The notes under the pieces are model-generated. The model was not told where the DNA came from and did not search any database. It saw nothing but the letters and a program-made list of their open reading frames with translations. DNA of 64,000 nucleotides from Acidimicrobiales bacterium (GTDB lineage Bacteria > Actinomycetota > Acidimicrobiia > Acidimicrobiales > Bog-793), in assembly GCA_052143575.1 (NCBI GenBank), contig JBKQSP010000125.1:3281-67280 (forward strand), in the 5' to 3' direction. The first letter of the stretch is position 1. Every line of letters starts with the position of its first letter. The position numbers and the translations under genes are program-made. This document shows positions 2,165-64,000 of this stretch, in pieces.

Positions 2165-5100
2165 CCAGTATCCCAACGTCCCCCGAGACAACCCAGCCTC
2201 CCGGCGAGGAGGGGGTCTCGAAGTCCCGGCCGTCGCGGCGGTCCGGCCTTGTGAAACTCCTACTGGCGGTGGTCGCCGCCACCCTCGCAGTCCTCCTCGT
2301 CATTCCGAGGACGCCGGTGTCAAGCAATGTCTCCGTCCAGTTTTCGAAGGCGGCTCTCGGGGCGGCTGCCGTGCCACGGCTCGGCATGAGCGCCTCCGAG
2401 TGCGACCAGCCGAGCATCGTCCCGCCGTCCACCTGGACGAGCGGCTCGCAGGCGGCCTCGGCGCGGCTCACCTCGGCCTCAGCGCCCCGCGTTGGCGGTG
2501 ACGAGCCGTTCGGCTTCAACGACATCTACGACAGCGTCATGTCGAACCTTTGGAGCGGTGCTGTCAATTATGGCGAGGACGCCTACTTCGGCTGGATCAT
2601 GGGCGCCATTTTCGGCGGCAAATCGGACTCCATCGACCCCGCCCAGGTGCAGCAAGACTTCCAGCAGGTGTCGAGCCAGCTCAACAACCTCTCGCAGGCG
2701 CAGTACGACGACTGCACGGCCATCATCGACACGCTCCAGGCCATGCAGTCCGACACGGACTCCGGCCTCTACTCCAACCTGGCCGGGCAGATGGCCGACC
2801 AGCTCGGCGCCTTGCAGACCTACCAGGACGACTTCAACTCCATCCTGTCGACGCTGCAGGCCAACGGTGGCAACGGCAGCGCCCTCTCGTCGGACGAGAA
2901 GGCCGACCTCGAGGACATGATCAACGGAAGCCAGGACGGCCTCCTCGGCATCATCAACACCATCAACGACAAGGAGGTCGGTGGCCAGCCCGGTGCTGAC
3001 GGCATGGTCTCCTTCTACGACAAGGTGCTCGTCGACAAGTACAACTACGACCCGTTCCGGACCCACCTGTTCCCGGCGGCCTTCGTGGACGAGGCGGCGG
3101 CGCAGCAGCAGTACTACTCCAACCTCATGGCGGAGGCCGCCTACCTCTACGCCAACGTCGAGCACCTGAGCTGGACCGACGGCACCTACAGCCACAGCCC
3201 CAACTCGGAGGCGGTCACGTCCTTCCTCGGCATCGTCCAGCAGGACGTGCAGTCGTGGACGTCGGCCTTCGCCGACGGCCCCGTCGGCGACGGGACGCCC
3301 AACTGGGTGAGCCAGCTACACGGCTTCGGCATCGGGGCCATCCCGGCCAATACCGTCCTCGACTACCGCAACCAGAACGACCCCATGCTGTGGACGACCA
3401 CGCCGGCCAACCTCACCGGTGAGCCGACCGGCCAGACGCCCTACTACTGCGGCACCACGGTGCAGTACTGCTTCGACCACACCTTTGCCAAGGTCATGTT
3501 CCGGCCCGGCGACGTCCAGATCTGGGCGCCGGTTGACACCAAGCTCGTCCCGGCCTCGCCCGAACCGATTGCGACGATGGTGAGCGACGCCGGCTACGAC
3601 GGTCTCTCCGGCTGGCGGGTGCCGACGACAGCGGACATCAACACGCTGCAGGCAGGCGCCACCGGCGGCCTCGGCACGTGGGGCCCGGCGAATTCCCTGG
3701 ACATGTTCGCCCCGGCGACGTTCACCTCCCACTACGGCGGAGTGGACAAGCAGATGACGGAGATCCTGCCGATCCTTGTGAACAGTGGGAGCGCGGCGAG
3801 CCCCACCTACACCGTCGGCATCGCCCAGCCGACCGACGACACCCTCACCTACCCCGACCTGCAGCTCGCTGACGGGACGGAGAACGACCTGGCAGGACAG
3901 GTCTTCCTCGTGCAGGACTTCCAACCGACGACGCCGCCCCCGAGCAACGGGCCCGCTGCCGGCCTTGCGAGCGGTGCTCGGCCTGCCCACGGAGTCCCGG
4001 CGCCGACGGCCCCCAAGGTTGGCGCCTCGACGGTGGGCGTGGCTCGCGTCAACTATTCGACTCCGTCGGCGTGCACCGCCAACGTCTACACCGTGCCCGC
4101 CGGCGTCGGTTTCGTGCAGATCACTGCGGTGGGGGGCCACGGGACCGCGGGGTACCTGGACGGGAACGCCGTCTCAGCAGGCGGCGCCGGTGGCCTCGTC
4201 GGCGAGATCCTCCCCGTCACCGCTGGCGACAAGCTCTACGTGCAGGTGGGCGGCTCCGCAGGCGCTTCGGGCAAGAACTACCTCGGCGGCCTCGGGGGCG
4301 GTGGCGATGGCGGGTTCACCCAGTCTCTCGAGCACGGCGACACGAGTGGCGGCGGCGGCGGCATGTCGTTCGTGAGCTCCTCGCCCCAGTGCCAGACAAG
4401 CCAGTCCTGGTTGGTCGTGGCCGGCGGCGGCGGTGGCGGCGGGAGCGGCCTCGGCTGGAAGGGCTACCCGATGCTCGACGGTGGCCAGGGCGGCGACGGC
4501 TGCGCCGACACGACCGTCACCTGCACCGGAGCCACCTCCGGGAGCCAGCTGAGCGACTCGTCCGGCACGGGCGGTGCCGCCGGTCAGCCCGCTCCGAGCA
4601 ACCTCGGTGGCAAGGGTGGAACCAACGGTTACACCTTCGCTGAGCCGGGATCGAGCGGTTGGATCGGCGTGGGCGGCCCGGGTGGGTCGTACGACTCGAA
4701 CTTCTACAGTGGCGGTGGCGGTGGTGGCGGTGCTGGCTACTTCGGTGGCGGCGGTGGCGGTGGTGCCGGTTTCAACGCTGCCGGTGGCGGCGGTGCCGGC
4801 GGTGCCAGCTTCGCCATTCCCGGCGGTGAGGGCATCTCCTACGGGGTCGCCCCGAGCGGAGTGTGGGACGGGTACGTCACCATCACGCCGGTCACCCAGC
4901 CCTACCCGACGCTGACGATCTCGGCCGGCACGGCGAACCCCACCTGGGGAAACCCGCCGGTCCTCACTGCGACGGCTCCCGCCTACGCAGAGGGTCAACT
5001 CAGCTTCTACGACGACGTCAACGGCGGCTGTGAGGACACGAGCAGCTCTCAGGCGAGCTGCGTGGAGCTCGGCGCTGCGCCGATCGAGAACGGCGTCGCC

Positions 5101-59663: not shown

Positions 59664-61022
59664 GTGGAGGTGACGAGCCGGCAGCTGTCCGACGCCGCCG
59701 CCATCGCCGAGGGCTTCATCTGCTACCGCGCCTTCATGCTTGCGGCGCCTGCGGTCTCCTACGGCATCGCCCGCCACGGGCGCACGGTGCTGAGCGGTGC
59801 CCGCGGCTCGAGCGACCTCGCCACCGGCACGCCGGCGACGGCTCACACGGGTTACCGCGTCGCTTCCATCACAAAGACGTTCACGGCCACGCTCCTGATG
59901 CAACTCGTCGAGGCCCGCAAGGTTCGCCTCGACGAGCCCGTGACGTCCTATCTGAGCTGGCTGAATCCGGCCGTCGGCAACTCCGGGCTCACCGTCCGTC
60001 ACCTGCTCACCCATAGCGGGGGAGTCATCCGAGACGGATCCTGCGGCTGGCGCCCCGGCGAGTTCCCGACGCGTCAGGAGGTGCGCGAGCAGCTCCTCGA
60101 CCACGGGACGTTCGCCGAGCCGGCGGCCGGGTTTCGCTACTCGAACATGGCCTACTCGCTCCTCGGCGAGATCGTCGAGACGGTGGGTGGCCGCCAGTTC
60201 GCCACCGCCGTCGACCGCTCCATCGCGAAGCCGCTCGGCCTCGAGGCGTCCGGGACACGCCTGACGCCCCGCCTGCGGGCGACGCTTGCCACCGGGTACT
60301 GGAGGCAGCTGCCCGGGGAAGTCCCTCGCCCCCTCGCCCAGAGCGAGGCAGCGGCCTTCGAGGCGGCCGGCGGGCTCGTCTCGACGGTCGGCGACCTCCT
60401 GCGGTACCAGGAAGCGCATCTGCCCGGCGACGGTCGCCTTCTCAGCGAGCTCAGCAAGCGTGAGATGCAGCGGGTGCAATGGCAGCGCGCCGAGGAGCCG
60501 CACCACGGCCTCGGCTGGATGATCTACACGGTCGACGGCATCACCGTGCGCGGGCACAGCGGCGGTTACCCCGGCTTCACGACGCGCATCGGGTTCTCGC
60601 CCGAGCAGGGCGTCTGCGCCGCCGTGCTGACGAGCACGATCTCACCGCTGTCCGGTGTCGGTCTCGAGGTGATCTTCCACTCCATCGCTCGGGTGCAGGC
60701 CATCTGGGAGGAGGCCGCCGGCGCCGCGCAGGGCCTCACCCGGCGCTCGCTCCGGCGCTTCGTCGGGCACTACCGGGGCGATTGGGGAGACGTGCTCGTG
60801 GCCGGCGTGAACAAGTCCTTGTACCTCCTCGACCCTGAGGAGGACCGTCCGATGCGGCTTCCTTCCCGCCTGGCGCCGGTCGACGACGGCGGTCGTTTCC
60901 TCATCGTGGACAACGACGACTACGGCAACCGCGGCGAGGAAGTTGCCTTCGACGTCGCGGAGCCCGGTCCGGCGCGCCGTCTTTCGATGGGTGGGCAGGT
61001 GCTCGAGCGGGTGGTCATCTGA
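59664..61022 (+). CDS. serine hydrolase, beta-lactamase/PBP4-like family
   Basis: SxxK motif in YRVASITKTFTATLLMQLV. YSNMAYSLLGEIVE. HSGGYPGF. The GTG start is uncertain. Confidence 0.8.
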   Translation: MEVTSRQLSDAAAIAEGFICYRAFMLAAPAVSYGIARHGRTVLSGARGSSDLATGTPATAHTGYRVASITKTFTATLLMQLVEARKVRLDEPVTSYLSWLNPAVGNSGLTVRHLLTHSGGVIRDGSCGWRPGEFPTRQEVREQLLDHGTFAEPAAGFRYSNMAYSLLGEIVETVGGRQFATAVDRSIAKPLGLEASGTRLTPRLRATLATGYWRQLPGEVPRPLAQSEAAAFEAAGGLVSTVGDLLRYQEAHLPGDGRLLSELSKREMQRVQWQRAEEPHHGLGWMIYTVDGITVRGHSGGYPGFTTRIGFSPEQGVCAAVLTSTISPLSGVGLEVIFHSIARVQAIWEEAAGAAQGLTRRSLRRFVGHYRGDWGDVLVAGVNKSLYLLDPEEDRPMRLPSRLAPVDDGGRFLIVDNDDYGNRGEEVAFDVAEPGPARRLSMGGQVLERVVI

Positions 61023-61026
61023 GGCC

Positions 61027-61590
61027 ATGCCGGCCTACGCAGCGCTCCTGCGCGGGATCAACCTCGCCGGCCACAACAAGGTGCCGATGGGCGAGCTGCG
61101 CACGCTGTGCGGTGAGCTCGGTCTCGGCGACGTCACCACGTACATCCAAAGCGGCAATGTCGTGTTCTCGAGCGTCCGCACCGACTCGAGCGCCCTCGCC
61201 GGCGAGCTGGAGGGCGCCATCGCCGGCGCCTTCGGCTTCGACGTGCCCGTCGTGCTGCGGTCCGCCGTCGAGCTGGAAGGCATCGCCGCCTCCAACCCGT
61301 ACGTGCAGGGGGGGAGGGATCCCTCCGAGCTCTCGGTCGGGTTTCTTGCGGAACTGCCCGCACCCGAGCGTGTGAGCGCATTGCGTGCCGACCCGCTGGC
61401 GAGCCGGCCTCCCGGACGTGACGAGTTCGCGCTCCTCGGCCGGGAGGTCTTCCTTCACCATCCCAACGGCTACGGGCGCTCGAAGCTGACCAACAGCTAC
61501 TTCGACCGGCGCCTCGGCACCATGATGACGGTGCGCAACTGGCGGACCGTCGTGACGCTGGGTGAGATGACGCAGCGCCTGGGTAGGTAG
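61027..61590 (+). CDS. DUF1697 family protein
   Basis: MPAYAALLRGINLAGHNKVPMGELRTLCGELGLGDVTTYIQSGNVVF. Confidence 0.85.
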   Translation: MPAYAALLRGINLAGHNKVPMGELRTLCGELGLGDVTTYIQSGNVVFSSVRTDSSALAGELEGAIAGAFGFDVPVVLRSAVELEGIAASNPYVQGGRDPSELSVGFLAELPAPERVSALRADPLASRPPGRDEFALLGREVFLHHPNGYGRSKLTNSYFDRRLGTMMTVRNWRTVVTLGEMTQRLGR

Positions 61591-61672
61591 GCCGTGAGCC
61601 GTCTCGGAACCGGAACTACCCTGACGCGTTGGCAAGCTGGCCATGCGGACCTGACACAGGGGAGCAAAGGCG

Positions 61673-62395
61673 ATGAGTCTGACGCCAGAGGTGTACGGGC
61701 AGGACATCTACACCGAGGCCGCCGGTGATCCCGACACGCTCGGCAATCTCGGGCCACTGCGGCCGATGGCGGGAGTCTGGGAGGGCACCTTCGGCCACGA
61801 CGACCATCCCGTCGCCGGCGGCAGCGGCCTCGATGCCTACGTCGAGCACTACGAGCTGCAACCGATCGACCGCCAGACGAACGGCCCGCAGCTGTTCTTC
61901 GGCCTCCGTTACCACACACACATCGTGCGACCCGGCGAGACGGAGACGTTCCACGACCAGGTCGGCTACTGGCTCTGGGAGCCGGCAGCACACGCCGTCG
62001 TCTTCACGCTCGCCATCCCCCGCGGCCAGGTGCTGCTGGCGGGCGGGACGGCCGAGCCGGATGCCACCGAGTTCGAAGTGAGGGCTGCACTCGGCTCGGA
62101 CACCTACGGGATCGCGTCGAACCCCTTCCTCGACCGAGCCTTCCGCACACTCAGCTTCCGCATGACCGTGACAGTTCACCGCGACGGCTCCTGGTCCTAC
62201 GACGAGGAGGCCGTCTTGCAGACACCGGATCGGGACGAGCCCTACCTGCATACGGACCGCAACGTTCTGCGGAGGGTGTCGCCGCCGTCTCCGAACCCGC
62301 TGGCTGCCGAAGCCGCCGAAGCCGCCGATGCAGCCGTCCCCGATGCCGGCCTCGGCATCGGGGATCTCCGACAGGAAGAGAGGAACCTTCCATGA
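61673..62395 (+). CDS. putative encapsulin cargo: nitrobindin/DUF1794-like beta-barrel protein with a C-terminal targeting-peptide-like tail
   Basis: GGGGAG RBS. Core LGPLRPMAGVWEGTFG...YVEHYELQP...FHDQVGYWLWEP...PYLHTDRNVLRRV. Then the Pro/Ala/Glu linker SPPSPNPLAAEAAEAADAAVPDA and GLGIGDLRQEERNLP. Its stop overlaps the encapsulin ATG (ATGA at 62392-62395). Confidence 0.8.
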   Translation: MSLTPEVYGQDIYTEAAGDPDTLGNLGPLRPMAGVWEGTFGHDDHPVAGGSGLDAYVEHYELQPIDRQTNGPQLFFGLRYHTHIVRPGETETFHDQVGYWLWEPAAHAVVFTLAIPRGQVLLAGGTAEPDATEFEVRAALGSDTYGIASNPFLDRAFRTLSFRMTVTVHRDGSWSYDEEAVLQTPDRDEPYLHTDRNVLRRVSPPSPNPLAAEAAEAADAAVPDAGLGIGDLRQEERNLP

Positions 62396-63198
62396 ACCAC
62401 CTGATGCGAGATCTCGCCCCCGTCACCGAGGCAGCCTGGGCGCAGATCGATGCCGAGGCAGAACGCTCTCTGAAGCACTTCCTGGCCGCCCGCCGCCTCG
62501 TGGACTTCGTCGGGCCGCGAGGCTACGAGCACTCCGCCGTCGACCTCGGCCGCACGGAGCAGCTGGAGAGCACGTCGCTCGGCACCGTGCAGGTTGCCCG
62601 CCGCCTTGTCGTGCCGCTGCTCGAGCTGCGCGCCGGGTTCTCACTCCCGCGCGCCGAGCTGGCGGCAGCCGACCGGGGGGCGACCGATCTCGAGCTGAGC
62701 GCCGTCATCGAGGCGAGCCGCGCAGCCGCCCTCGCCGAGGACGGGATCATCTTCCATGGCTACGAATCGGGCGCCATCGCCGGTATCGGGCCGTCGTCGC
62801 CCTACGACCCGGTCGGCATCACCGACGACTACAGCGCCTATCCCGAGCACGTCGCCAAGGCCGTGGCGATCCTGCGGGCGGCCGACGTGGCCGGCCCGTA
62901 TGCCGTCGCCCTCGGCTCCCGCTGCTTCACGGGCGTCACCGAAACCACCGAGCACGGTGGCTATCCGGTCTTCGAACACTTGCGTCAGATCCTCGGCGGT
63001 CCTGTCGTCTGGGCGCCCGCCGTCGACGGCGCCATCGTGCTCAGCCAGCGCGGAGGCGACTACGAGATGACCGTCGGGGAGGACTACTCCGTCGGGTATT
63101 CGGCGTTGGACGTCGACACGGTCGAGCTCTACATCGAGGAGAGCCTCGCATTTCGGATCAACGCACCCGAGGCGGCTGTTTGCCTGACCCACGGCTGA
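62392..63198 (+). CDS. family 1 encapsulin nanocompartment shell protein (linocin M18/Cfp29 type, 268 aa)
   Basis: MNHLMRDLAPVTEAAWAQIDAEAERSLKHFLAARRLVDFVGPRG...GIIFHGY...GPYAVALGSRCFTGVTETTEHGGYPVFEHLRQILGGPVVWAPAVDGAIVLSQRGGDYEMTVGEDYSVGY...VELYIEESLAFR. It is colinear with the remembered M. tuberculosis Cfp29 sequence (MNNLYRDLAPVTEAAWAEIE...). Confidence 0.92.
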   Translation: MNHLMRDLAPVTEAAWAQIDAEAERSLKHFLAARRLVDFVGPRGYEHSAVDLGRTEQLESTSLGTVQVARRLVVPLLELRAGFSLPRAELAAADRGATDLELSAVIEASRAAALAEDGIIFHGYESGAIAGIGPSSPYDPVGITDDYSAYPEHVAKAVAILRAADVAGPYAVALGSRCFTGVTETTEHGGYPVFEHLRQILGGPVVWAPAVDGAIVLSQRGGDYEMTVGEDYSVGYSALDVDTVELYIEESLAFRINAPEAAVCLTHG

Positions 63199-63219: not shown

Positions 63220-64000
63220 TCAGGGTCGCATCGTCAGCGGCCCGACGGCACTGGCGATGCCGGCCGTGCGCCGTGCCTGCCGCAGCATGTTGGCGTCGAG
63301 TCCGTTCGTGAGGTAGCAGAACGAGACGTCGGTGTCGGGATCGGCGAACGCGATCTGTCCGCCGGCGCCGCCATGGCCGAACGTGCGAGGCGACACGGTG
63401 TGCCCGAAGCCCCGCATGGCGGCGCCCTGGCCCTCTCCGGCGATCACCGTCCCGAGCGCCCGGTTGGACGACACGCGGTACACCGGGTCGGGCAGAACGC
63501 CGTGGACCTCGCGGGTGCCGGCGGCCAGCACCGCCGGGTCCCACATGCCTGCCGGGTTGTGCAGGAGGGCCTGGTAGTAGAGGGCGAGGTCGGCGGCCGT
63601 CGAGATGCCACCACCGCCGGGTACCCCCATCGCCCGCAGCTCGGGACGGTTGAAGGCGACGAGGGCAGCCTCGGTCACCTCTCCCTGGAGCGCCTCGAGG
63701 GTGATGCCGGGAATGCCGAGCACCGCCTCCAGCTCGGCGTTGCTGGGGGGCTCTCCCCGCACCTCGAGGTCGTTGATGTCATCCTGCTCCCCGGGAGGGA
63801 CGCCGAGGCGGAGCCGCCGCAGGCCGAGCGGATCGAGAACCCGCTCATACACGAAGCGGCGGAAGTCCATGCCGCCGAGGCGCTCGATGAGCTCGGCCAT
63901 CACCCAGTGGGCGGACGTGGGGTGGTATTCGAAACGCGTCCCCGGCTCCCAGTTGAGCCGCCAGCTGGCAAAGCGTGCCAGCCGCTGCTGGCGCGTGACG
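63220..64000 (-). CDS. serine hydrolase (beta-lactamase family), C-terminal part; 5-prime end beyond the window
   Basis: The frame stays open to base 64000 (…WEPGTRFEYHPTSAHWVMAELIERL...). C-terminus FGHGGAGGQIAFADPDTDVSFCYLTNG is typical of the family. Confidence 0.8.
   Translation of the reverse strand, partial: VTRQQRLARFASWRLNWEPGTRFEYHPTSAHWVMAELIERLGGMDFRRFVYERVLDPLGLRRLRLGVPPGEQDDINDLEVRGEPPSNAELEAVLGIPGITLEALQGEVTEAALVAFNRPELRAMGVPGGGGISTAADLALYYQALLHNPAGMWDPAVLAAGTREVHGVLPDPVYRVSSNRALGTVIAGEGQGAAMRGFGHTVSPRTFGHGGAGGQIAFADPDTDVSFCYLTNGLDANMLRQARRTAGIASAVGPLTMRP

What the first reader, a model, noticed from the sequence alone, without database searches (positions are those of the whole stretch)
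62279..62395. Pro/Ala/Glu linker plus GLGIGDLR tail: a targeting-peptide signature, with translational coupling to the shell gene
Residues 203-225 (SPPSPNPLAAEAAEAADAAVPDA) are low-complexity and linker-like. Residues 226-233 (GLGIGDLR) fit the hydrophobic-Gly-hydrophobic-Gly-x-Leu-basic pattern of known family-1 loading peptides such as LGIGSLK/R-type tails of DyP and ferritin-like cargos. One difference stands out: Asp replaces the usual Ser before Leu. The peptide is followed by a charged QEERNLP extension rather than ending the protein. The ATGA overlap at 62392-62395 suggests fixed cargo-to-shell co-translation.
Basis: partly seen in the sequence, partly recalled or inferred. Interest (0 to 1): 0.6.

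Follow-up and report, generated by a model that had tools for sequence, protein, structure and literature searches.

The report
Loading tag on nitrobindin-like encapsulin cargo
The tail of this small beta-barrel protein is a genuine-looking loading tag for the protein shell (encapsulin) encoded next door; the seven residues after the tag look mainly like a by-product of the shell gene's ribosome-landing site, and the passenger protein is a type I did not find in encapsulin catalogues.

Summary
ORF 61673-62395 (240 aa) ends in a linker, GLGIGDLR (residues 226-233) and QEERNLP. Its stop overlaps the start of a family-1 encapsulin shell gene (62392-63198) in ATGA.

The tag matches the experimentally defined motif: the Leu, Ile, Gly, Leu and basic positions essential in the Klebsiella DyP tag are all present. 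The shell keeps the tag-contacting residues R34, D38 and D231.

Among 80 related loci plus the window, the tag tracks the shell:
- 32 loci have the shell immediately downstream.
- 22 loci have the tag without an adjacent shell, and 20 of those genomes carry an intact shell elsewhere, next to an encapsulated ferritin.
- Of 26 genomes with tag-less homologues, 9 have a shell.

The QEERNLP extension appears to be shaped mainly at the nucleotide level. All 32 operon-type loci keep an NTGA overlap and 29 keep exactly 7 codons. Rare A/T-ending codons and weak RNA structure occur only when the shell gene follows.

Coupling is plausible. A fixed cargo-to-shell ratio is not shown.

The cargo has a nitrobindin fold, and I found this cargo class in no encapsulin paper or catalogue I could search. 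Encapsulation and haem binding are untested.

The parts
61658..61664 (+). Shine-Dalgarno-like AGGGGAG of the cargo gene, 8 nt before ATG 61673
   Evidence: Sequence. Duplex with the anti-SD is -7.4 kcal/mol.
61673..62395 (+). Cargo gene: 240-aa (26.3 kDa, pI 4.6) nitrobindin-like beta-barrel protein with a C-terminal targeting peptide
   Evidence: ORF. PF08768 match at E 6e-20, 72 bits against a cut-off of 25. Molecular weight and pI.
61745..62275 (+). THAP4/nitrobindin-type beta-barrel domain (residues 25-201); invariant His at 45, 81, 83, 94 and 193
   Evidence: Pfam match covers model positions 1-151 of 151. AlphaFold2 model has pLDDT 81 with strands across 34-203. Foldseek top hits are nitrobindins 7bbm, 3ia8 and 2a13, with TM 0.77-0.81 on target length. 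Invariant columns.
62279..62305 (+). SPPSPNPLA (residues 203-211): conserved C-terminal cap of the domain, not linker
   Evidence: N208 and P209 are invariant; P205, L210 and A211 are at least 90% conserved. Tag-less homologues end just after PNPLA.
62306..62347 (+). Variable Ala/Glu/Pro linker (residues 212-225, AEAAEAADAAVPDA)
   Evidence: These alignment columns vary in sequence and length. From the end of the NPx motif to the first Leu of the tag is 4-27 residues, median 11. pLDDT falls from 74 to 51.
62348..62371 (+). Targeting-peptide core GLGIGDLR (residues 226-233); L227, I229, G230, L232 and R233 match the essential positions of the Klebsiella DyP tag
   Evidence: Sequence. Motif and alanine scan from PMC10960027. 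General motif [LF]x[VI]xx[LI]. Conservation.
62372..62392 (+). Seven-residue extension QEERNLP, which also codes the shell gene's ribosome-binding region
   Evidence: 29 of 32 operon-type loci have exactly 7 codons here. The amino acid at extension position 4 varies (R/G/E) but the codon stays AGG/GGG/GAG. Rare codons GAA, AGG and CCA are enriched.
62373..62385 (+). Purine run AGGAAGAGAGGAA: Shine-Dalgarno sequence of the shell gene (AGGA at 62381-62384, 7-nt spacer to ATG 62392)
   Evidence: Sequence. Duplex with the anti-SD is -8.5 kcal/mol.
62392..62395 (+). ATGA stop/start overlap between cargo and shell
   Evidence: An NTGA overlap is present in 32 of 32 related operons: ATGA 20, GTGA 10, TTGA 2.
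62392..63198 (+). Family-1 encapsulin shell gene (268 aa, 28.5 kDa); R34, D38 and D231 are the tag-contact residues
   Evidence: NF041155 equivalog at 281 bits against a cut-off of 100. PF04454 at E 3e-80. Closest solved shell is 9ry4 at E 4e-79; Cfp29 and Klebsiella shells score about 1e-64. Residue conservation.

Best explanation
Residues 226-233 (GLGIGDLR) are a functional family-1 encapsulin targeting peptide. It hangs on a 14-residue flexible linker at the C-terminus of a nitrobindin-fold beta-barrel protein. During shell assembly the tag should dock into the luminal pocket of the shell protein encoded immediately downstream. L227, I229 and L232 would fill the hydrophobic pockets, R233 would pair with D38, and R34 and D231 would hold the tag backbone. 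The 26-kDa barrel, probably a haem protein, would end up inside a shell that is probably a 60-subunit T=1 particle.

The seven residues after the tag (QEERNLP) are most likely not a recognition element. They exist because the shell gene's Shine-Dalgarno sequence, its A-rich unstructured landing region and its start codon lie inside the end of the cargo reading frame. That forces rare purine-rich or A-ending codons and a last codon ending in A, G or T before TGA. The two genes are therefore translated from one mRNA with a conserved stop/start overlap. This allows re-initiation (coupling) on top of direct initiation at the shell's own ribosome-binding site.

Shown here: sequence features, conservation, co-occurrence with the shell, nucleotide-level signatures and the fold prediction. 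Inferred: physical encapsulation, haem binding, T number, and the degree of coupling.
For: 1. Shell identity. NF041155 equivalog scores 281 bits (cut-off 100) and PF04454 gives E 3e-80.

2. Tag residues. The tag aligns residue for residue with KpDyP GSLNIGSLK. In that tag L340, I342, G343, L345 and K346 are each essential for loading (PMC10960027). The window has L227, I229, G230, L232 and R233 at those positions. It also fits the general motif [LF]x[VI]xx[LI].

3. Shell pocket. R34 and D231 are invariant in 46 of 46 related shells and D38 is kept in 44 of 46. These are the equivalents of KpEnc R34, D229 and D38.

4. Family-wide conservation. 114 of the 120 nearest homologues keep the tag while the linker varies in sequence and length.

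5. Co-occurrence with the shell.
- 32 loci have the tag and an adjacent shell.
- 22 loci have the tag but no adjacent shell, and 20 of those 22 genomes hold an intact shell elsewhere.
- Only 9 of 26 genomes with tag-less homologues hold a shell (Fisher p = 8e-5).
- On the cargo tree the three states are interleaved, so tag and shell change together repeatedly. The window's nearest tag-less relatives, L031 and L022, come from genomes without a shell.

6. Own genome. It has one shell, one copy of this cargo and no other clear tag-bearing protein.

7. The extension reflects the shell's initiation region.
- 32 of 32 loci have an NTGA overlap and 29 of 32 have exactly 7 codons.
- The Leu of the tag is CTA or CTT in 24 of 29 loci (background 3%).
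- The Arg of the tag is CGA in 22 of 29 (background 8%).
- Glu is GAA in 19 of 26 (background 21%).
- Every Arg at extension position 4 is AGG (background 4%).
- The final Pro is CCA in 12 of 13 (background 6%).
- The last 27 nt are 55% GC against 67% for the gene body, and 31% A against 18%.
- None of this is seen in tagged homologues without a downstream shell (66.5% GC, 18% A).
- The 50-nt junction folds at -6.8 kcal/mol against -15.2 for gene-body windows and -15.6 for the gene ends of tagged homologues without a downstream shell.

8. Cargo fold. The model has pLDDT 81 and the top Foldseek hits are nitrobindins. The tail has pLDDT of about 51, as expected for a disordered tether.
Against: - No experiment exists. 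Encapsulation, haem binding and coupling are all inferred.
- The window's tag lacks both Ser residues of the DyP consensus: G226 stands for S339 and D231 for S344. In KpDyP the S339A/S344A double mutant lost loading. Asp can still form hydrogen bonds, and the shell here belongs to a different subclade, but affinity could be lower.
- The anti-SD duplex energy of the tail does not separate loci with a downstream shell (-5.6 kcal/mol) from tagged homologues without one (-5.3). The nucleotide-level argument therefore rests on codon choice, A-richness, weak structure, the fixed length and the overlap, not on SD strength alone.
- Glu at extension position 2 and Leu at position 6 are fairly conserved as amino acids, so some peptide-level role for the extension is not excluded.
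- The cargo is only about 15% identical to solved nitrobindins, and no sequence-level PDB hit was found. Haem binding rests on Pfam family membership and on invariant His193.
- Related loci are not fully independent samples.
Confidence: 0.8

Rival explanations
1. The whole 15-residue tail GLGIGDLRQEERNLP is the recognition peptide. On this view the charged extension contacts the shell and is conserved for that reason.
For: Extension position 2 is Glu in 26 of 29 loci and position 6 is Leu in 21 of 29, using ordinary Leu codons. The shells paired with this tail form a subclade with its own residues near the pocket: K28, H29, Q219 and F232.
Against: Extension position 4 changes amino acid (R, G or E) while keeping a purine-rich codon. 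Synonymous choices are strongly skewed towards rare A-ending codons. The extension is replaced by unrelated sequences of other lengths in tagged homologues whose shell gene lies elsewhere. In KpDyP the residue after the basic position is dispensable, and modelled tag density ends at the Lys.
Confidence: 0.12
2. Strict translational coupling. Shell translation depends on ribosomes that finish the cargo gene, which fixes the cargo-to-shell ratio near 1:1.
For: The NTGA overlap is conserved in 32 of 32 operons. Sixty copies of a 26-kDa cargo would fill about 46-62% of an assumed T=1 lumen of 9-10 nm inner radius, so near-full occupancy is physically possible.
Against: The shell start has its own strong SD (-8.5 kcal/mol) in an unusually open, A-rich region, which is the signature of direct initiation. 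Four-base overlaps are common in high-GC actinobacterial operons, and they also occur at the ferritin-shell junctions of related genomes.
Confidence: 0.25
3. The LGIGDLR motif is not a loading tag. It would be a chance match or serve another purpose, such as a degradation or oligomerisation signal, and the barrel protein would act freely in the cytoplasm.
For: There is no direct evidence of encapsulation. Tag-less homologues exist, so the barrel can function without a shell. The two Ser positions of the DyP consensus are absent in the window.
Against: All positions shown to be essential in KpDyP are present. The motif is found on homologues in step with shell presence across several independent transitions. 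It is the only LGIGxLR tail in the genome. The gene always abuts the shell gene, as in known family-1 operons.
Confidence: 0.04

Closest known systems
DyP-peroxidase family-1 encapsulin systems (Klebsiella pneumoniae KpDyP/KpEnc, PDB 8U50/8U51; M. tuberculosis and M. smegmatis Cfp29/DyP, 7BOJ, 7P1T)
   Same: - Two-gene cargo-then-shell operon.
- C-terminal tag on a flexible linker.
- Tag core L-x-I-G-x-L-[K/R].
- Shell residues R34, D38 and D229 (here D231) are kept.
- Shell of about 265-268 aa that aligns end to end, E about 1e-64.
   Different: - The cargo is a 26-kDa nitrobindin-fold barrel, not a roughly 38-kDa DyP.
- The two Ser residues of GSLxIGSLK are Gly and Asp here.
- A fixed 7-residue extension follows the tag and carries the shell's ribosome site.
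- The shell belongs to a subclade with K28, H29, Q219 and an aromatic residue at 232.
Encapsulated ferritin (EncFtn/Flp) family-1 systems, e.g. Haliangium ochraceum (tag GSLGIGSLR) and Rhodospirillum rubrum
   Same: The tag is almost identical (GSLGIGSLR against AGLGIGDLR). Related Acidimicrobiales genomes carry EncFtn-shell operons with GSLGIGSLKGxxx tails and the same ATGA or GTGA overlap.
   Different: The cargo fold and chemistry differ. In those related genomes the nitrobindin-like protein carries the tag but is encoded away from the shell, like a secondary cargo.
Nitrobindins (A. thaliana At1g79260, PDB 2A13/7BBM; human THAP4 C-terminal domain, 3IA8; M. tuberculosis nitrobindin)
   Same: The predicted fold is a beta-barrel with TM 0.77-0.81 on target length. 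PF08768 is matched over its full length. An invariant His (H193) lies 8 residues before the end of the domain match, which is about where I recall the proximal His158 near the C-terminus of the Arabidopsis protein.
   Different: - Only about 15% identity, with no sequence-level PDB hit.
- The domain is longer (177 against about 151 residues) and has an extra N-terminal segment.
- Four further invariant His residues are present.
- Known nitrobindins are free proteins with no encapsulin tag.
Hemerythrin cargo of actinobacterial family-1 encapsulins (Giessen and Silver 2017; Andreas and Giessen 2021)
   Same: Both are small non-ferritin, non-peroxidase cargos of Actinobacteria for which a role in binding or detoxifying NO and reactive oxygen species is proposed.
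   Different: Hemerythrin is a di-iron four-helix bundle. This cargo is a beta-barrel, presumably with haem.

Membership tests
Family-1 encapsulin C-terminal targeting peptide | Located at the C-terminus behind a flexible, poorly conserved linker | tested here: met
   The linker (residues 212-225) varies in sequence and length among homologues. pLDDT is about 51 for residues 221-240.
Family-1 encapsulin C-terminal targeting peptide | Motif [LF]-x-[VI]-x-x-[LI] followed by a basic residue; Leu, Ile, Gly, Leu and Lys/Arg at the positions essential in KpDyP | tested here: met
   L227-G-I229-G230-D-L232-R233 compared with L340-N-I342-G343-S-L345-K346.
Family-1 encapsulin C-terminal targeting peptide | (Auxiliary, not defining) Ser at the two hydrogen-bonding positions of the DyP consensus GSLxIGSLK | tested here: not met
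   The window has G226 and D231. Within this cargo family the residue before the first Leu is S 63, G 26, D 10, and the residue before the second Leu is N 49, S 31, D 21. The S339A/S344A double mutant of KpDyP lost loading.
Family-1 encapsulin C-terminal targeting peptide | Present only on homologues that have a shell available; cargo gene usually directly upstream of the shell gene | tested here: met
   32 loci have an adjacent shell. 20 of 22 genomes with a tagged but non-adjacent homologue have an intact shell, against 9 of 26 genomes with tag-less homologues (Fisher p = 8e-5).
Family-1 encapsulin C-terminal targeting peptide | The tag is necessary and sufficient for loading into the shell | not testable with these tools
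   This needs co-expression and purification, tag deletion, and a reporter fusion.
Family-1 encapsulin shell (NF041155 / PF04454) | Profile score above the curated cut-off over the full length | tested here: met
   281 bits against a cut-off of 100, covering model positions 1-261 of 261. PF04454 gives 269 bits.
Family-1 encapsulin shell (NF041155 / PF04454) | Tag-binding residues equivalent to KpEnc R34, D38 and D229 | tested here: met
   R34, D38 and D231 were mapped through the alignment to the 268-aa enterobacterial shell 9e5e, used as a numbering proxy for 8u50. They are conserved in related shells. KpEnc I230 corresponds to Y232 here.
Nitrobindin / THAP4 haem-binding beta-barrel (PF08768) | Pfam score above the gathering threshold, and a nitrobindin-type barrel fold | tested here: met
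   72.3 bits against a threshold of 25, covering the full model. Foldseek probability is 1.0 with TM 0.77-0.81 to 7bbm, 3ia8 and 2a13.
Nitrobindin / THAP4 haem-binding beta-barrel (PF08768) | Proximal His that ligates haem b | tested here: inconclusive
   H193 is invariant in the last strand, 8 residues before the end of the domain match. This is about where I recall His158 near the C-terminus of the Arabidopsis protein; H158 is named in the PDB titles. No residue-level structural superposition was available.
Translationally coupled gene pair | Stop/start overlap conserved among orthologous operons | tested here: met
   NTGA overlap in 32 of 32 loci.
Translationally coupled gene pair | Downstream translation depends on upstream translation | not testable with these tools
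   This needs reporter fusions with premature stops and SD mutants. Read mapping was unavailable.

The most novel reading that the evidence does not exclude
Nitrobindin-fold (probably haem) beta-barrel proteins are an undescribed cargo class of family-1 encapsulins, common in soil Acidimicrobiia. The same protein family switches repeatedly between three states: free protein without a tag, sole operon-encoded cargo, and distally encoded secondary cargo that would be co-loaded with encapsulated ferritin. The tag is gained or lost in step with the shell. If the barrel binds haem, this would be a compartment that sequesters a haem protein for NO or peroxynitrite chemistry, or for haem storage, next to or instead of iron mineralisation.
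Probability: 0.55. Interest if true: 0.65.

Novelty: new variant of a known kind. Interest (0 to 1): 0.5.

Why it matters
The loading tag itself is canonical, so the finding mainly confirms that this operon is a working cargo-shell pair. Three things give it value.

1. The cargo is a nitrobindin-like barrel, absent from the encapsulin cargo lists I could read. Those lists name DyP, ferritin-like proteins, IMEF, hemerythrin, bacterioferritin and fusions. This cargo family is abundant in soil metagenomes. It widens the known chemistry of these compartments and gives nitrobindins, whose bacterial role is unclear, a testable cellular context.

2. The natural series of tagged and tag-less homologues, with and without a shell, is a ready-made evolutionary control for tag function.

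3. The tail shows how a short peptide signal and a ribosome-binding site can share the same bases. This matters to anyone who aligns encapsulin tags, because trailing residues may be nucleotide-driven. It also matters to anyone who engineers such operons, because recoding the tag can change shell expression.

Tried and rejected
- Sequence searches of the cargo against PDB chains, with the single sequence and with a 34-sequence profile, found nothing. The 29-residue tail alone also found nothing. Only the fold search identified nitrobindins.
- Pairwise identity of synonymous codons did not separate tail from body (0.57 in the body against 0.39-0.86 per tail position). Strong GC3 bias already makes body codons alike. 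The informative signal is the direction of codon choice.
- Anti-SD duplex energy does not distinguish tails with and without a downstream shell.
- A programmed -1 frameshift that would fuse cargo to shell was considered, because the shell lies in the -1 frame. There is no X XXY YYZ heptamer in the last 120 nt, so I rejected it.
- Conserved accessory genes were sought. The flanking DUF1697 and beta-lactamase-family genes recur only in the closest relatives L001 and L005, so the unit is the two-gene cassette.
- The promoter and terminator scan gave nothing useful.
- A search for papers citing the PDB codes of the closest solved shell (9RY4 and others) returned only unrelated hits.

Full report
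**Observation**

The window holds an ORF at 61673-62395 (+) of 240 aa. The next ORF, 62392-63198 (+) of 268 aa, begins at the ATG inside ATGA at 62392-62395. The quoted residues and coordinates are exact:
- residues 203-225, SPPSPNPLAAEAAEAADAAVPDA, at 62279-62347
- residues 226-233, GLGIGDLR, at 62348-62371
- residues 234-240, QEERNLP, at 62372-62392

The downstream gene is a family-1 encapsulin shell. It scores 281 bits on the NCBIfam equivalog NF041155 (cut-off 100) and E 3e-80 on PF04454. The upstream gene matches PF08768, the THAP4-like haem-binding beta-barrel (nitrobindin) family, over the whole model at E 6e-20.

**Is the tail a targeting peptide?**

Published work defines the tag well. 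The DyP consensus is GSLxIGSLK and the H. ochraceum ferritin tag is GSLGIGSLR. In the Klebsiella system L340, I342, G343, L345 and K346 are each essential, the next residue K347 is dispensable, and shell residues R34 and D229 are crucial while D38 contributes (PMC10960027). A general motif [LF]-x-[VI]-x-x-[LI] has been proposed (bioRxiv 10.1101/2025.09.13.676036).

The window's tail places L227, I229, G230, L232 and R233 on exactly those positions. The window's shell has R34, D38 and D231 at the equivalent sites. I mapped them through the alignment to the 268-aa enterobacterial shell 9e5e. R34 and D231 are invariant in 46 related shells.

One caveat: the two Ser residues of the DyP consensus are Gly226 and Asp231 here, and the double Ser-to-Ala mutant of KpDyP lost loading.

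**Comparative evidence**

The cargo has thousands of relatives, nearly all from Acidimicrobiales metagenome bins: 7,981 database clusters scored E <= 0.001. Of the 120 closest, 114 keep the tag. The core is LGIGxLR in 77 of them.

Eighty genomic loci plus the window fall into three classes.

| Class | Loci | Tag | Shell gene | Shell in genome |
|---|---|---|---|---|
| A (includes the window) | 32 | present | immediately downstream | yes, adjacent |
| B | 22 | present | none within 4 kb | intact shell elsewhere in 20 of 22 genomes |
| C | 27 | absent; protein ends just after the conserved PNPLA | none within 4 kb | 9 of the 26 genomes tested |

- In class B genomes the distant shell sits next to an encapsulated ferritin with a GSLGIGSLK tail.
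- The difference in shell presence between class B and class C genomes gives Fisher p = 8e-5.
- On a maximum-likelihood tree of the barrel domain the three classes are interleaved. Well-supported branches force at least 5 changes for class A.
- The window's closest tag-less relatives, L031 and L022, come from genomes without a shell. Tag and shell therefore come and go together.
- The window's own genome is 4.19 Mb and 93% complete. It has one shell, one copy of this cargo and no other convincing tag-bearing protein.

**The extension and the overlap**

All 32 class A loci keep a 4-nt NTGA overlap (ATGA 20, GTGA 10, TTGA 2), and 29 keep exactly seven codons after the basic residue of the tag. 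The constraint acts on nucleotides.

| Site in class A tails | Observed | Background in the same genes |
|---|---|---|
| Extension position 4 | codon stays AGG/GGG/GAG while the residue changes (R, G or E); every Arg is AGG | AGG is 4% of Arg codons |
| Final Pro | CCA in 12 of 13 | 6% |
| Glu | GAA in 19 of 26 | 21% |
| Leu of the tag | CTA or CTT in 24 of 29 | 3% |
| Arg of the tag | CGA in 22 of 29 | 8% |
| Last 27 nt | 55% GC, 31% A | gene body 67% GC, 18% A |

Class B tails show no such shift (66.5% GC, 18% A). The 50 nt around the junction fold at -6.8 kcal/mol in class A. Gene-body windows fold at -15.2 and class B gene ends at -15.6.

In the window the purine run AGGAAGAGAGGAA (62373-62385) pairs with the anti-SD at -8.5 kcal/mol and lies 7 nt before the ATG. 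I therefore read QEERNLP as the protein-level shadow of the shell's ribosome-landing site.

Two honest limits apply. SD duplex energy alone does not separate class A from class B. Glu at extension position 2 and Leu at position 6 are conserved enough that a minor peptide role cannot be excluded.

The overlap allows termination-reinitiation coupling, but the strong SD in an open region equally supports direct initiation. A fixed cargo-to-shell ratio is therefore not established. A rough packing estimate shows that 60 copies of the 26-kDa cargo would occupy about 46-62% of an assumed T=1 lumen of 9-10 nm inner radius, so high occupancy is possible.

**The cargo**

An AlphaFold2 model built from a 34-sequence alignment has pLDDT 81, a beta-barrel across residues 34-203 and a low-confidence tail. 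Foldseek against the PDB puts Arabidopsis nitrobindin and the human THAP4 nitrobindin domain on top, with probability 1.0, TM 0.77-0.81 on target length and about 15% identity.

His45, 81, 83, 94 and 193 are invariant. H193 lies about where I recall the proximal His158 near the C-terminus of Arabidopsis nitrobindin, but I could not superpose residues. Nitrobindins bind NO and isomerise peroxynitrite (PMC7763097, seen), so a stress-chemistry role is a reasonable inference, not a result.

Residues 203-211 (SPPSPNPLA) are conserved in all classes and belong to the domain. The true linker is residues 212-225.

**Comparison with the known, and novelty**

The tag and shell are standard family-1. The cargo is not among the classes listed by Andreas and Giessen 2021: DyP, Flp, IMEF, hemerythrin, bacterioferritin, fusions, and 90 unassigned systems. 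In the stored part of their supplement PF08768 appears only once, as a distant neighbour of a DyP operon.

Full-text searches pairing encapsulin with the following terms found nothing relevant:
- nitrobindin, nitrobindin-like, THAP4, DUF1794, PF08768, UPF0678
- peroxynitrite isomerase, FABP family, fatty acid-binding protein-like
- calycin, lipocalin-like, Acidimicrobi*

The library lacks most subscription journals, so absence is not proof.

Two earlier notes of this scan reached the same reading of the cargo: one on this operon and one on another genome. I treat them as agreement, not as evidence.

**Verdict**

The remarks on the extension and on coupling are refined: the extension appears to be mainly a dual-coding ribosome site, and coupling is possible but a fixed ratio is unproven. 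This is a new variant of a known kind of system, of moderate interest.

Noticed in passing
L010, L012, L015, L017, L018, L024-L026, L028-L030, L032, L033, L035, L038, L044, L046 and others (cargo at about 4001-4700); shells in L081-L100: Twenty-two homologues carry the tag (mostly SLGIGSLR plus a short unrelated tail) with no shell within 4 kb. Twenty of those genomes have a shell elsewhere, directly downstream of an encapsulated ferritin with a GSLGIGSLKGxxx tail and an ATGA or GTGA overlap. The nitrobindin-like protein there looks like a distally encoded secondary cargo.
   Followed up: partly
L101-L103 (genome G006, contig C4, about 1474307-1474985) and L021: The only shell match in this genome is split into three weak fragments, suggesting a decayed or misassembled shell gene. 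Its nitrobindin-like homologue L021 still ends in LGIGSLRGARSML.
   Followed up: no
L082 (genome G003), shell start at about 1492: This shell is 71.5% identical to the window's and is preceded by the class A type junction (GAAAGCAGGAC...ATGA). No intact cargo frame lies upstream, so this may be a disrupted or frameshifted cargo gene. The same genome has a distal tagged homologue (L015).
   Followed up: no
window 62392-63198 (shell residues 28, 29, 219, 232) and related shells: Shells paired with the 'LGIG[D/N/S]LR plus 7 residues' tail share K28, H29, Q219 and F/Y232. Ferritin-paired shells mostly have E/T, T, L/M and I/L there, and their cargo tags have Ser or Gly, never Asp or Asn, at the variable position. 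The exception is L086, which has the class A residues and an Asn tag. This may be tag-pocket co-variation, but it holds only at clade level and is confounded by phylogeny.
   Followed up: partly
window 61673-62395 (cargo residues 45, 81, 83, 94, 193): Five His residues are invariant in 34 aligned homologues. That is more than the single proximal His I recall for nitrobindins, and it may indicate bis-His haem ligation or a separate metal site.
   Followed up: no
genomes G049-G088 (relatives of the window's genome): Distribution is patchy. The cargo is found in 7 of 10 genomes of the window's genus (counting the window's own genome). It is found in only 1 of 15 other genera of the family and 1 of 16 other families of the order.
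   Followed up: partly
window 59664-61022 (+) and 63220-63999 (-): Two beta-lactamase-family (PF00144) serine hydrolase genes flank the cassette, and a DUF1697 gene (60943-61590) lies between the first one and the cargo. These neighbours recur only in the closest relatives L001 and L005, so they are probably not part of the system.
   Followed up: yes
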